From Escherichia coli (GTDB lineage Bacteria; Pseudomonadota; Gammaproteobacteria; Enterobacterales; Enterobacteriaceae): a DNA stretch of 64,000 nucleotides. The stretch's first letter is position 1; every line of letters begins with the position of its first letter. Below are positions 35,512-38,500 of the stretch, piece after piece. The position numbers were made by a program. The stretch lies in the NCBI RefSeq assembly GCF_024298765.1, contig NZ_CP101210.1; one strand, written 5' to 3'.

Positions 35512-38500
35512 TAATTCCAGGGATTTATAAATGAAACAAACACAACGTCACAACGGTATTATCGAACTGGTTAAACAGCAGGGTTATGTCAGTACCGAGG
35601 AACTGGTGGAGCACTTCTCCGTCAGCCCGCAGACTATTCGTCGCGACCTCAACGAGCTGGCAGAGCAAAACCTGATCCTGCGCCATCATGGCGGTGCGGC
35701 GCTGCCTTCCAGTTCGGTTAACACCCCGTGGCACGATCGCAAGGCCACCCAGACCGAAGAAAAAGAGCGCATCGCCCGCAAAGTGGCGGAGCAAATCCCC
35801 AACGGCTCGACGCTGTTTATCGATATCGGCACCACCCCGGAAGCGGTGGCGCACGCGCTGCTTAATCACAGCAATTTGCGCATTGTCACCAACAATCTCA
35901 ACGTCGCTAACACTTTGATGGTAAAAGAAGATTTTCGCATTATTCTCGCCGGTGGCGAATTACGCAGCCGCGATGGCGGGATCATTGGCGAAGCGACACT
36001 CGATTTTATCTCCCAGTTCCGCCTTGATTTCGGCATTCTGGGGATCAGCGGCATTGACAGTGACGGCTCGCTGCTGGAGTTCGATTACCACGAAGTTCGC
36101 ACCAAACGCGCCATTATTGAGAACTCGCGCCACGTTATGCTGGTTGTCGATCACTCGAAATTTGGCCGTAACGCGATGGTCAATATGGGCAGTATCAGCA
36201 TGGTAGATGCCGTCTACACCGACGCCCCGCCGCCAGTAAGCGTGATGCAGGTGCTGACGGACCACCATATTCAACTGGAGCTGTGCTGATCCTGCACGGC
36301 TTCCCACGTCAGATTAAAACGCGCCAGGTATTTGCGTAGCCGATCCGCGTCGTTGACGCTGGCTTTCCCCTGGCGCGAAACATCAAAAAGCTGGCGACCG
36401 GCAGCAGAAAGTGACTTTGCCTGGCGGCAGATGGCTATTACGTGTTCCAGTTGCAGTCGATCAAAGAGGTCGATGTTTTCTGCCTCAGCGCCCAGCAGTT
36501 GTGTAAGCGCGGAGGGACGGCTCTCCTGCCAGTTATAGCGCAGACGGTTTATCTCATCTTCAACCACGTCCAGAGTGATGCGTCCGCTAGTGGCAAAGGT
36601 GGCCATCCGCGTGACGCTGGCAGAAAGTTCGCGAAAGTTACCGCGCCATGTTGCCTGGGGAGAGGTCGCAAAAGCCAGCCAGGCGCGCCGCGCTTCGGTG
36701 TTAAAACGCACGCTGTCGCCAGTGAGTGAGGCGTGGCGCTCCACTTCATAATCAAGGTTCGGTTCAATATCTTCCTGGCGCTGGCTCAGCCCCGGCAAGG
36801 TGAAGGTCCAGAGATTGATCCGCGCGTACAGATCTTCGCGGAATTTGCCTTCGGCAACCAGCTGACGCAAATCGCGCACCGTTCCGGCGATAAGCTGAAA
36901 GTCGCTACTCACCTGGCGATCGCTGCCAAATGGGTAAAAGGTTTTCTCTTCAATGGCTTTCAGCAACATCGCCTGTTCGTCTGCGCCCAGTTCGCCAATC
37001 TCATCAAGAAACAACATACCACCGTTGGCGCTGCGTAATAATCCTTCACGAGATTCCCGCGCCCCGGTAAACGCGCCTTTCACATGACCAAACAGCGTCG
37101 ACATGGCGGTATCGCCACGCAGAGTGGCGCAGTTCATTTCTACAAATGCGCCGCTAAACTGATGCCGTGCCTGTTTTAATTCGAAGATGCGTCGTGCCAG
37201 AAATGACTTGCCCGCACCGGTCGGGCCGTTAAGCAGGATCGGTGCGCGGGATTTAATCGCCACTTTTTCAATCTGCTCAATCATGCGGTTGAAGTGGGGG
37301 GTACGCGTGGCAATGCCGGACTTAAGAAAATCGAGCGTTTGCTGCCGTTCCTCGGCAAAGCGGCTGGCGATGGCGTTATAACGGCTTAAATCGAGATCGA
37401 TAATCGTCACTTCACCTGCGCCGCGCGGCTGTTCTTTTTTGCGCGGAGGGGAAGATTGTATCAGCCGGGCGGGCAGGTAACGCGCTTCCGCCAGCAGAAA
37501 CCAGAAAATCTGTGCGACGTGGGTGCCAGTGGTGATGTGAATTAAATAGTCTTCTTTATCAGGTTGAAACGCGTAGCCACGGGCGAAATCATGCAGGCAG
37601 GCGTAAACCTCTTCGAAATCCCACGGGTTATGCAGTTCAATCTCAACGCTCACCACTTCAGTTTCTGGCGAAACGCTGGCGATATCGCATTTAAGCGTTT
37701 CAAACAGCGAGCGCGAGCGGGCGTCGTGCAACAATTCCTGTCGATTGATGACTAACGATTCTTGCTGGCATAGACAGAGTGACGGACGCCATTTCGACCA
37801 GCGCTGACTGCCGCGCCCGACATAATCCAGCACCGTTCCGACAAAGCCAAAAGCCACTGTTTTACGCATCTTAGATATCCTTATAAAAGACGAGATTTCA
37901 TTATCGGTAAATCGGCTTTGCGGGAAATCTCCGGTTACGGACGTAAAGATATAATCTTTTTAAAAACAATGAATAATAAAAATTAAGCTGCTTATTTAAT
38001 TTTCTGGCACGACGGTTGCAATTATCAGGACAGCAAACAACGAAAAGAGAAAAAAAATGAATTACGAATTACTAACCACTGAAAATGCCCCGGTAAAAAT
38101 GTGGACCAAAGGCGTGCCGGTAGAGGCCGATGCGCGTCAGCAACTTATTAATACGGCGAAGATGCCGTTTATTTTCAAACATATTGCGGTAATGCCGGAT
38201 GTACACCTGGGTAAAGGTTCTACCATTGGTAGCGTGATCCCGACCAAAGGGGCGATTATTCCGGCGGCGGTGGGCGTGGATATCGGTTGTGGAATGAACG
38301 CGCTGCGTACCGCGTTAACGGCGGCAGACCTGCCGGAAAACCTGGCGGAGCTGCGTCAGGCGATTGAAACAGCCGTGCCGCACGGACGTACTACCGGACG
38401 TTGTAAACGTGATAAAGGCGCATGGGAAAATCCGCCTGTTAACGTCGATGCGAAATGGGCTGAGCTGGAAGCCGGTTATCAGTGGTTAACGCAAAAATAT

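What the first reader, a model, noticed from the sequence alone, without database searches (positions are those of the whole stretch)
38005..38020. Sigma-54 promoter driving the rtcBA RNA-repair operon, with divergent rtcR
Perfect TGGCAC-N5-TTGCA element upstream of rtcB and a divergently encoded sigma-54 activator RtcR; a known RNA repair system, intact here.
Basis: established knowledge. Interest (0 to 1): 0.15.

Follow-up and report, generated by a model that had tools for sequence, protein, structure and literature searches.

The report
Known sigma-54 promoter of rtcBA
This is the already well-studied sigma-54 promoter that switches on the E. coli RNA-repair genes rtcB and rtcA under control of the neighbouring activator gene rtcR; it is intact here and ordinary.

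Summary
TGGCACGACGGTTGCA lies at 38005-38020 (+) and is the only exact TGGCAC-N5-TTGCA in the window. It sits in the 187-bp gap between divergent rtcR (36271-37869, -) and rtcB-rtcA (38057-40303, +) of an E. coli chromosome. [quoted passage not shown] A weight matrix built from the other 134 published E. coli sigma-54 sites ranks it first in the window (15.5 bits). That score is not rare across 64 kb, so the statistical weight comes from position and orientation (chance about 4e-4 to 1e-3) and from comparison. The core is exact in 6 of 7 other E. coli alleles, and in 17 of 18 RtcR loci from Escherichia to Desulfovibrio a GG-N10-GC site lies divergent from rtcR, upstream of RNA-repair genes. 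All three genes are full length with their catalytic and sigma-54-contact motifs. The only possibly new item is a conserved dyad (CGATAAT-N2-ATTATCG; 37891-37906, about -132) that is a candidate RtcR enhancer. This allele also carries small changes in that dyad, in an IHF-like site and in the 5' UTR.

The parts
36271..37869 (-). rtcR: sigma-54-dependent enhancer-binding activator (N-terminal RtcR/CARF-type regulatory domain, AAA+ sigma-54 interaction domain, C-terminal DNA-binding region)
   Evidence: NF038308 RtcR equivalog scores 830 bits (cut-off 650) over residues 1-527. PF06956 covers residues 2-185 and PF00158 covers 188-354. GPTGAGKS is at residue 215, GAFTGA at 265 and FLDEIGEL at 287. 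The protein is 532 aa like K-12, with 16 aa differences and no internal stops.
37891..37906 (.). Candidate RtcR enhancer (UAS): a dyad reading CGAGATTTCATTATCG here, against the cross-genus consensus CGATAWT-N2-ATTATCG. Its centre is about -132 from the predicted start and it lies 22-37 nt upstream of the rtcR ATG. This is an inference, not a demonstrated site.
   Evidence: Between rtcR and the -24 element this is the only block conserved across Escherichia, Klebsiella, Intestinirhabdus and Superficieibacter (alignment A2). It is a perfect palindrome in Superficieibacter. GATA-N6-TATC occurs at the same position in 6 of 16 loci, against 0.07 expected. This window's allele has a T->G change at 37894 in the left half.
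37964..37976 (+). IHF-like site (AAACAATGAATAA) within the AT-rich tract between the dyad and the promoter; a candidate DNA-bending site
   Evidence: It has 2 mismatches to WATCAANNNNTTR here, while the K-12 allele AAACAATGAATTA has 1 mismatch. The AAAAACAATGAAT block is conserved in most Escherichia alleles. PMC9650030 mentions an rtc IHF site but gives no sequence. No site with 1 mismatch or fewer occurs in this window's intergenic region.
38004..38020 (+). Sigma-54 (RpoN) -24/-12 promoter element of rtcBA: cTGGCACGACGGTTGCA, with GG at -25/-24 (38006-38007) and GC at -13/-12 (38018-38019)
   Evidence: Exact pattern, unique in the window. Weight-matrix score 15.5 bits, the top hit of the window. 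Identical to K-12 ChIP-seq site OS35. The core is invariant across enterobacterial genera while the spacer varies.
38031..38031 (+). Predicted transcription start (+1, C), followed by a 26-nt 5' UTR with a Shine-Dalgarno-like AAGAG at 38045-38049
   Evidence: The position follows from the -12 GC, and equals the motif centre plus 19 as defined in PMC4591121. 'ACA' at 38030-38032 fits the ApC primer plus ATP that PMC9650030 used for the native PrtcBA. The UTR is 2 nt shorter than in the 7 other E. coli alleles. The start was not mapped here.
38057..39283 (+). rtcB: RNA 3'-phosphate/2',3'-cyclic phosphate to 5'-OH ligase
   Evidence: PF01139 scores 447 bits over residues 29-408. It is 408 aa with 2 aa differences from K-12. 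D75, C78, H185, H281 and H337 are present.
39287..40303 (+). rtcA: RNA 3'-terminal phosphate cyclase. A second in-frame ATG at 39284 abuts the rtcB stop codon.
   Evidence: NF003247 scores 775 bits (cut-off 333). It is 338 aa as annotated in RefSeq, with 9 aa differences from K-12. The conserved His in ...HPSCHLL... is present.
40316..40341 (.). Hairpin (AGCCGGAU-N10-AUCCGGCU) between the convergent rtcA and malT stop codons; a possible bidirectional terminator with weak support
   Evidence: Fold energy is -12.2 kcal/mol with z = -1.8, and there is no U tract. The terminator scan did not call it.

Best explanation
This is the sigma-54 (RpoN)-dependent promoter PrtcBA of an E. coli chromosome. 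RNA polymerase-sigma-54 holoenzyme binds the -24 GG / -12 GC element (38004-38020) as a closed complex that cannot open on its own. RtcR, encoded divergently, is held inactive by its N-terminal CARF-type domain. When RNA damage signals accumulate, RtcR oligomerises on upstream DNA. The literature implicates 5' tRNA fragments ending in 2',3'-cyclic phosphate, and also RtcA/RtcB themselves. The most likely binding site is the conserved dyad at 37891-37906. RtcR then contacts sigma-54 through its GAFTGA loop by looping the AT-rich, IHF-like intervening DNA, and uses ATP hydrolysis to open the promoter. Transcription starts at about C38031 and produces the rtcB-rtcA mRNA, which encodes an RNA ligase and an RNA 3'-phosphate cyclase. 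Shown here: the motif, its weight-matrix rank, the gene identities and integrity, and the conservation. Taken from the literature on the identical K-12 sequence: sigma-54 binding and RtcR/sigma-54 dependence. Inferred: the start site, the dyad as enhancer, and the IHF-like site.
For: The motif is exact and unique in the window. It is the top weight-matrix hit, scoring at the level of real sites. The position-restricted chance is 4e-4 to 1.3e-3. The 17-mer is identical to K-12 ChIP-seq site OS35 (rtcB, FAT 17, flagged as confirmed in EcoCyc; PMC4591121). RtcR, RtcB and RtcA are identified above curated cut-offs and are intact with their key motifs. No sigma-70-like promoter is found in the intergenic region. 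The core is exact in 6 of 7 other E. coli alleles although the flanks vary (8 alleles in all, 92-100% identical to the window's). In 17 of 18 RtcR loci from four phyla-level groups, the best sigma-54 hit lies divergent from rtcR, 127-197 bp from its start. Per-locus chance is 5e-5 to 6e-3, and rtcB and/or rtcA were identified downstream in 14 of the 17 within the DNA held. 'ACA' at the predicted -1/+1/+2 fits the ApC+ATP priming used for the native PrtcBA. RtcR and sigma-54 dependence and CARF repression are described in PMC9650030, PMC7790460 and PMC3844500.
Against: Window-wide, the weight-matrix score alone is not significant. Nothing was measured in this strain. The native promoter is reported as very weak in vitro despite its consensus core. 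This allele carries a T->G change in the candidate enhancer half-site, an extra A in the IHF-like site and a 2-bp deletion in the 5' UTR, any of which could alter output. The RtcR enhancer has no published sequence that I could find. Some rtcBA induction is reported to be RtcR-independent, possibly from other promoters.
Confidence: 0.93

Rival explanations
1. The sigma-54 site is real, but the promoter is crippled or re-tuned in this particular allele. The candidate RtcR dyad has a weakened left half (GAGA for GATA), the IHF-like site has an inserted A, and the 5' UTR lacks 2 nt, so rtcBA would be poorly inducible or differently expressed compared with K-12.
For: The allele-specific differences appear in alignments A1 and A2 and in the dyad and IHF scans. 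This allele is a minority one: 72 of 4855 genomes are at least 99% identical over the intergenic region. Strain MS7163 shares the G variant and has a frameshifted rtcR.
Against: The -24/-12 core is untouched and all three genes are intact. The Shine-Dalgarno to ATG spacing changes only from 9 to 7 nt, which is within the normal range. The dyad's role is itself unproven, and one mismatch in one half-site is common among functional enhancer sites.
Confidence: 0.05
2. rtcBA is transcribed here mainly from another, sigma-70-type or read-through promoter, and the sigma-54 site is a transcriptionally inert binding site of the kind common in E. coli.
For: PMC4591121 reports many sigma-54 binding sites that may never yield transcripts. 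PMC9650030 mentions RtcR-independent induction and possible alternative promoters, and a very weak native promoter in vitro.
Against: No sigma-70-like -35/-10 pair occurs in the intergenic region. The site is intergenic, co-oriented and 36 nt from the ATG, with its cognate activator next door. The pairing of rtcR with a divergent sigma-54 site holds in 17 of 18 distant loci. In Salmonella, the rtcBA-operon promoter reporter rose 16-fold and the operon transcripts 71-fold, the latter listed as sigma-54-dependent, when a constitutive enhancer-binding protein was expressed.
Confidence: 0.015
3. The match is a chance occurrence of the consensus with no role.
For: Exact-pattern matches occur in 9% of shuffled windows, and weight-matrix scores this high occur in most random 64-kb windows.
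Against: Position and orientation bring the chance to about 1e-3. The 17-mer is identical to a ChIP-verified K-12 site. The core is conserved across genera while the spacer and flanks diverge. The pattern recurs in 17 of 18 RtcR loci.
Confidence: 0.005

Closest known systems
E. coli K-12 PrtcBA (rtcBp), the sigma-54 promoter of the rtcBA operon activated by RtcR (Genschik et al. 1998, cited from memory and through PMC9650030 and PMC7790460; ChIP-seq site OS35 in PMC4591121)
   Same: The 17-mer CTGGCACGACGGTTGCA is identical. The gene order glpR-rtcR / rtcB-rtcA-malT is the same, the arrangement is divergent in both, and the protein lengths match.
   Different: These are allelic differences only. 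The 231-bp intergenic query is 96.6% identical to K-12. The window has a 2-bp deletion in the 5' UTR, an extra A in the IHF-like site and T->G in the dyad. rtcR is 94.5% and rtcA 94.6% identical to K-12 at the nucleotide level (16 and 9 aa changes), and rtcB is 97.4% identical (2 aa changes).
Salmonella Typhimurium rsrp, the sigma-54 promoter of rsr-yrlBA-rtcBA activated by RtcR (PMC3844500, PMC7790460, PMC9879122)
   Same: It has the same activator, the same divergent layout and a near-identical core (TGGCACGCTGGTTGCAAT against TGGCACGACGGTTGCAAT).
   Different: The Salmonella operon begins with rsr (Ro60) and Y RNAs. No Y RNA or other Rfam family is found in the rtc locus here, and rtcB follows the promoter directly. 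Intestinirhabdus and Superficieibacter have a 517-aa ORF ahead of rtcB, as rsr is in Salmonella, but that ORF's identity was not tested.
pspF / pspABCDE divergent sigma-54 control region of E. coli (from memory: PspF enhancer sites lie next to the pspF promoter, an IHF site lies between the enhancer and the -24/-12 element, and PspF autoregulates)
   Same: The activator gene is divergent from its sigma-54 target, and the candidate enhancer abuts the activator's own start region with AT-rich, IHF-like DNA in between.
   Different: PspF lacks a regulatory domain and is controlled by PspA. RtcR carries a CARF-type sensor domain. The RtcR enhancer and any autoregulation are inferred here, not shown.

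Membership tests
Sigma-54 (RpoN) -24/-12 promoter | GG and GC doublets exactly one helical turn apart (GG-N10-GC) within TGGCAC-N5-TTGCW | tested here: met
   TGGCACGACGGTTGCA lies at 38005-38020 and is unique in the window.
Sigma-54 (RpoN) -24/-12 promoter | Scores like genuine sites on an RpoN weight matrix | tested here: met
   The score is 15.5 bits on a matrix from 134 other ChIP-seq sites (median 14.4). It ranks 36th of 135 and is the top hit of the window. The score is not significant window-wide, but the position-restricted p is about 4e-4 to 1.3e-3.
Sigma-54 (RpoN) -24/-12 promoter | Intergenic, co-oriented with a downstream gene and a short distance from it | tested here: met
   The element ends 36 nt before the rtcB ATG, and the predicted +1 at 38031 gives a 26-nt UTR.
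Sigma-54 (RpoN) -24/-12 promoter | A cognate enhancer-binding AAA+ activator with a GAFTGA loop | tested here: met
   The adjacent RtcR has PF00158 (172 bits), with GAFTGA at residue 265, Walker A at 215 and Walker B at 287.
Sigma-54 (RpoN) -24/-12 promoter | An upstream enhancer (UAS) bound by the activator, about 80-150 bp upstream | tested here: inconclusive
   A conserved dyad CGATAWT-N2-ATTATCG is centred at about -132. No binding data exist, and the RtcR enhancer is listed as not known in PMC4987338.
Sigma-54 (RpoN) -24/-12 promoter | Sigma-54 occupancy and rpoN-dependent, activator-dependent transcription | not testable with these tools
   Evidence comes only from the literature on the identical K-12 17-mer (ChIP-seq OS35) and on the Salmonella orthologue.
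RtcR-regulated rtcBA RNA-repair operon | RtcB ligase with metal-binding and guanylylation residues | tested here: met
   PF01139 scores 447 bits. D75, C78, H185, H281 and H337 are present. The protein is 408 aa with 2 substitutions against K-12. The roles of these residues are recalled from memory.
RtcR-regulated rtcBA RNA-repair operon | RtcA cyclase with the adenylylated histidine | tested here: met
   NF003247 scores 775 bits. His308 (338-aa numbering; His309 if counted from the upstream ATG) is present in HPSCHLL. The role of this residue is recalled from memory.
RtcR-regulated rtcBA RNA-repair operon | RtcR with an N-terminal RtcR/CARF-type domain and an AAA+ domain, encoded divergently | tested here: met
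   NF038308 scores 830 bits against a cut-off of 650. PF06956 covers residues 2-185. rtcR is on the opposite strand, 187 bp from rtcB.
RtcR-regulated rtcBA RNA-repair operon | Association of rtcR with a divergent sigma-54 site and RNA-repair genes in other genomes | tested here: met
   This holds in 17 of 18 loci. rtcB and/or rtcA were found downstream in 14 of the 17 within the DNA held.

The most novel reading that the evidence does not exclude
The 16-bp dyad CGATAWT-N2-ATTATCG (window 37891-37906) is conserved at a fixed distance from the -24 element in Escherichia, Klebsiella, Intestinirhabdus and Superficieibacter, with a related GATA-N6-TATC in one Pseudomonas. It may be the RtcR enhancer, which has not been defined by sequence in any paper I could search. 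Because it lies 22-37 nt from the rtcR ATG, it might also mediate RtcR autoregulation. This strain's minority allele (T->G in the dyad, +A in the IHF-like site, -2 nt in the UTR) would then be a natural variant with altered rtcBA inducibility.
Probability: 0.4. Interest if true: 0.25.

Novelty: already known. Interest (0 to 1): 0.08.

Why it matters
It matters little as a discovery. The rtcBA sigma-54 promoter and its activator RtcR have been known since 1998, and the identical sequence has been shown to bind sigma-54 in K-12. The check is useful mainly as a positive control for the scan: a reader working from raw sequence located a true sigma-54 promoter to the base. Two by-products have modest value. 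The first is a cross-phylum demonstration that rtcR is almost always paired with a divergent -24/-12 site at a near-constant distance. The second is a concrete, testable candidate for the RtcR enhancer sequence, which a 2016 review lists as unknown.

Tried and rejected
1. Window-wide significance of the weight-matrix score was not reached: 60% of Markov-simulated windows reach it. Significance therefore rests on position, orientation and conservation.

2. A scan for the IHF consensus WATCAANNNNTTR at 1 mismatch or fewer found no site in this window's intergenic region. Only 2-mismatch sites occur, although the K-12 allele has 1-mismatch sites.

3. The sigma-70 promoter scan found nothing in the intergenic region on either strand, so the rtcR promoter could not be placed.

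4. The inverted repeat GAGATTTC/GAAATCTC (37892-99 / 37924-31) is perfect only in this allele, being 7 of 8 in K-12, and is not conserved outside Escherichia. I rejected it as the enhancer in favour of the cross-genus dyad.

5. The enterobacterial dyad was not found in the same form in Iodobacter, Accumulibacter, two Pseudomonas, Calditrichia or the Desulfo- loci. TATC/GATA-rich repeats near rtcR in those taxa were noted by eye only.

6. The Rfam scan found no RNA family in the rtc locus.

7. Genschik et al. 1998 (PubMed 9738023) is not held. A literature search for a defined RtcR UAS returned nothing relevant.

8. The K-12 feoB sigma-54 site appeared to fall outside feoB when I transferred annotation from strain 2014C-3338. 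An IS3-family insertion in the window explains this.

9. One of the 18 RtcR loci (uncultured Desulfovibrio UMGS1582, 42% identity) had no convincing sigma-54 site, with a best score of 6.4 bits.
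Full report
**Observation.**
- It is the only exact TGGCAC-N5-TTGCA on either strand of the 64-kb window. Dinucleotide-preserving shuffles give 0.09 matches on average, and 9 of 100 shuffles contain one.
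- It lies in a 187-bp intergenic region. On one side is a 532-aa ORF on the minus strand (36271-37869). On the other are two tandem ORFs on the plus strand (38057-39283 and 39284/39287-40303).

**Gene identities.**
- The minus-strand ORF is RtcR. The NCBIfam equivalog NF038308 scores 830 bits against a cut-off of 650 over residues 1-527. Pfam places the RtcR regulatory domain at residues 2-185 and the sigma-54 interaction domain at 188-354.
- The plus-strand ORFs are RtcB (PF01139, 447 bits) and RtcA (NF003247, 775 bits).
- The flanking genes are glpG and glpR on one side and malT on the other.
- The 4.2-kb locus is 100% identical to several E. coli chromosomes, whose RefSeq annotation gives the same names. 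The window is therefore E. coli chromosomal DNA.

I took the 135 sigma-54 ChIP-seq motifs in Tables 1 and 2 of Bonocora et al. 2015 (PMC4591121). I removed the rtcB site itself to avoid circularity, built a log-odds matrix from the rest and scanned both strands of the window.
- The 17-mer CTGGCACGACGGTTGCA (38004-38020) is the best hit in the window, at 15.5 bits. The median of the real sites is 14.4 bits, and this one ranks 36th of 135.
- The score is not remarkable window-wide. The best hit in first-order Markov simulated windows averages 15.9 ± 1.6 bits, and 60% of them reach 15.5. An exact i.i.d. calculation expects 0.30 such hits per 128,000 positions. The matrix is loose because it includes many weak intragenic sites, and the G+C-rich spacer here scores poorly.
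- Restricted to the 171 co-oriented positions of the intergenic region, the chance is 4e-4 (i.i.d.) to about 1.3e-3 (from the Markov rate).

The statistical weight, however, comes from context rather than from the score alone.

**Direct link to experiment.** The same table lists site OS35: motif CTGGCACGACGGTTGCA, downstream gene rtcB, fold-above-threshold 17, and flagged as experimentally confirmed in EcoCyc. The window's 17-mer is identical.
- That paper places the start site 19 bp downstream of the motif centre, which here is C38031. Counting C38019 as -12 gives the same position.
- Kotta-Loizou et al. 2022 (PMC9650030) primed the native PrtcBA in vitro with the dinucleotide ApC at -1/+1 plus labelled ATP. 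The window reads ACA at 38030-38032, which is consistent.
- The same paper states that rtcBA expression relies on a sigma-54 promoter and RtcR, that the CARF domain represses RtcR, and that CARF-deleted RtcR is constitutively active.
- It also notes that the native promoter is very weak in vitro, so a consensus core does not imply strength.
- Hughes et al. [quoted passage not shown]
- Samuels et al. 2013 (PMC3844500) give the Salmonella orthologous promoter as TGGCACGCTGGTTGCAAT. With a constitutive activator, its reporter rose 16-fold (14 to 220 Miller units) and the operon transcripts, listed as sigma-54-dependent, rose 71-fold.

**Integrity ("intact here").** Compared with K-12, all three genes have the same length and no internal stops.

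| Gene | Nucleotide identity to K-12 | Amino-acid changes |
|---|---|---|
| rtcR | 94.5% | 16 |
| rtcB | 97.4% | 2 |
| rtcA | 94.6% | 9 |

- RtcR keeps Walker A (GPTGAGKS, residue 215), the sigma-54-contacting GAFTGA (265) and Walker B (287).
- RtcB keeps D75, C78, H185, H281 and H337.
- RtcA keeps the histidine in HPSCHLL.
- The roles of these RtcB and RtcA residues are recalled from the RtcB and RtcA structural literature, not tested here.
- rtcA has two adjacent ATGs directly after the rtcB stop codon (TAA ATG ATG). RefSeq uses the second.
- No sigma-70-like -35/-10 pair is found in the intergenic region.

**Within-species comparison.**
- The intergenic region is found in 4855 of 5426 complete E. 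coli genomes, at 92-100% identity.
- In an alignment of eight alleles sampled across that range, the 16-mer is exact in seven.
- The exception, strain Z0117EC0032, has TGGTAC and also a truncated rtcR.
- This window's allele is a minority one: 72 genomes are at least 99% identical. It differs from all seven others by a 2-bp deletion just before the rtcB ATG, which moves the AAGAG-to-ATG spacing from 9 to 7 nt, and by an extra A at about 37978.

**Cross-species comparison.** A scan of one genome per species with RtcR as the query returned 18 loci with full-length relatives at 40-96% identity. They come from Escherichia species, Klebsiella oxytoca, Intestinirhabdus, Superficieibacter, Iodobacter, Accumulibacter, three Pseudomonas, a Calditrichia MAG and six Desulfobacterota.
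- In 17 of the 18, the best matrix hit within 700 bp upstream of rtcR, on either strand, lies on the strand divergent from rtcR, 127-197 bp from the rtcR start. All are GG-N10-GC sites scoring 11.3-17.5 bits. The chance per locus is 5e-5 to 6e-3.
- Downstream lie rtcB and/or rtcA. In some loci they follow a 517-554-aa ORF, as rsr precedes them in Salmonella, or other genes. In three loci the DNA held ended, or no hit was found, before rtcB or rtcA.
- This is strong independent evidence that the element is functional and tied to RtcR.

**Anatomy upstream of the promoter.** When the enterobacterial genera are aligned, the intergenic DNA diverges almost completely except for two blocks.
- The first block is TTCTGGCACG-N4-TTGCAA. 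Its spacer varies freely (ACGG, CAGG, GCGG, CCAG), as expected for a -24/-12 element.
- The second block is a 16-bp dyad, CGATAWT-N2-ATTATCG, lying 22-37 nt from the rtcR ATG and centred about 103-105 bp upstream of the -24 element, which is about -132 from +1.
- The dyad is a perfect palindrome in Superficieibacter, has one mismatch in K-12, Klebsiella and Intestinirhabdus, and has two in this window (CGAGATTTCATTATCG, with T->G at 37894).
- GATA-N6-TATC occurs at this position in 6 of 16 loci, against 0.07 expected.
- I propose the dyad as the RtcR enhancer. This is an inference. A 2016 review lists the RtcR enhancer as not known (PMC4987338). PMC9650030 refers to an rtc UAS and an IHF site without giving sequences. 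A search found no later definition.
- An alternative is that the block is conserved because it belongs to the rtcR 5' region, although that would not explain its dyad symmetry.
- Between the dyad and the promoter lies AT-rich DNA with an IHF-like site at 37964-37976. It has 2 mismatches here and 1 in K-12.

**Verdict.** This is the known PrtcBA promoter with its known activator, in an intact locus. It is not novel, and interest is low. The most novel reading the evidence allows is that the conserved dyad is the uncharacterised RtcR enhancer and that this allele carries natural variants in it.

Noticed in passing
window 23140-32564: A chaperone-usher fimbrial operon lies between glgP and glpD. 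It comprises a major subunit, two chaperones, an usher and further fimbrial subunits, followed by three hypothetical genes. It accounts for about 9.3 kb that K-12 lacks at this position, where K-12 has only the yzgL pseudogene. The annotation was transferred from the 99.96% identical strain 2014C-3338, in which one fimbrial gene and one hypothetical gene are frameshifted. Their state in this window was not checked.
   Followed up: partly
window ~53258-54577: An IS3-family insertion sequence lies between rpnA and feoC. It has orfA of 134 aa (54119-54523, -), orfB of 283 aa (53265-54116, -) and 40-nt imperfect terminal inverted repeats. It is absent from the otherwise near-identical strain 2014C-3338 and, judging by spacing, from K-12.
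   Followed up: partly
window 19245-19261 (+) and 56832-56848 (-): Two intragenic sigma-54 ChIP-seq sites reported in K-12 are conserved base for base in this window. One is AAGGCATGTTTTATGCA inside glgA (site IS43, FAT 49). The other is GTGGCACTGAACATGCT inside feoB (site IS42). Both were in the matrix training set, so their scores are not independent evidence.
   Followed up: partly
window 40712-40728 (+): CTGGCGCAGTTGTTGCG is antisense within malT and scores 14.5 bits on the sigma-54 matrix, the third-best hit in the window. It is not in the K-12 high-stringency ChIP list. It is probably a chance match.
   Followed up: no
rtc locus, window 36271-40303, compared with other E. coli: The rtc genes are unusually divergent among E. 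coli. rtcR and rtcA are only about 94.5% identical to K-12 at the nucleotide level, mostly through synonymous changes. More than half of 5,400 genomes fall in the 90-95% identity band for the 4.2-kb locus. About 10% of complete genomes lack the rtcR-rtcB intergenic region. Sampled strains show rtcR frameshifted or truncated, or rtcB split by IS1. rtcB is also split in the E. albertii type strain. This suggests frequent decay or recombination at the locus.
   Followed up: partly
window 5795-5859 (+): The RyhB small RNA is the only Rfam family reaching its gathering score in the window (83 bits).
   Followed up: no
near the right end of the window (between envZ and pckA; L032 24031-24703 in strain 2014C-3338 coordinates): A RelE/ParE-family toxin gene and a NadS-family gene sit between envZ and pckA in the near-identical strain's annotation. 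I did not check whether they still fall inside the window after the IS3 insertion shifts the coordinates.
   Followed up: no
summary (E. coli genomes): The 4.2-kb rtc query produced 45 matching places on plasmids. These were not examined and may be partial matches.
   Followed up: no
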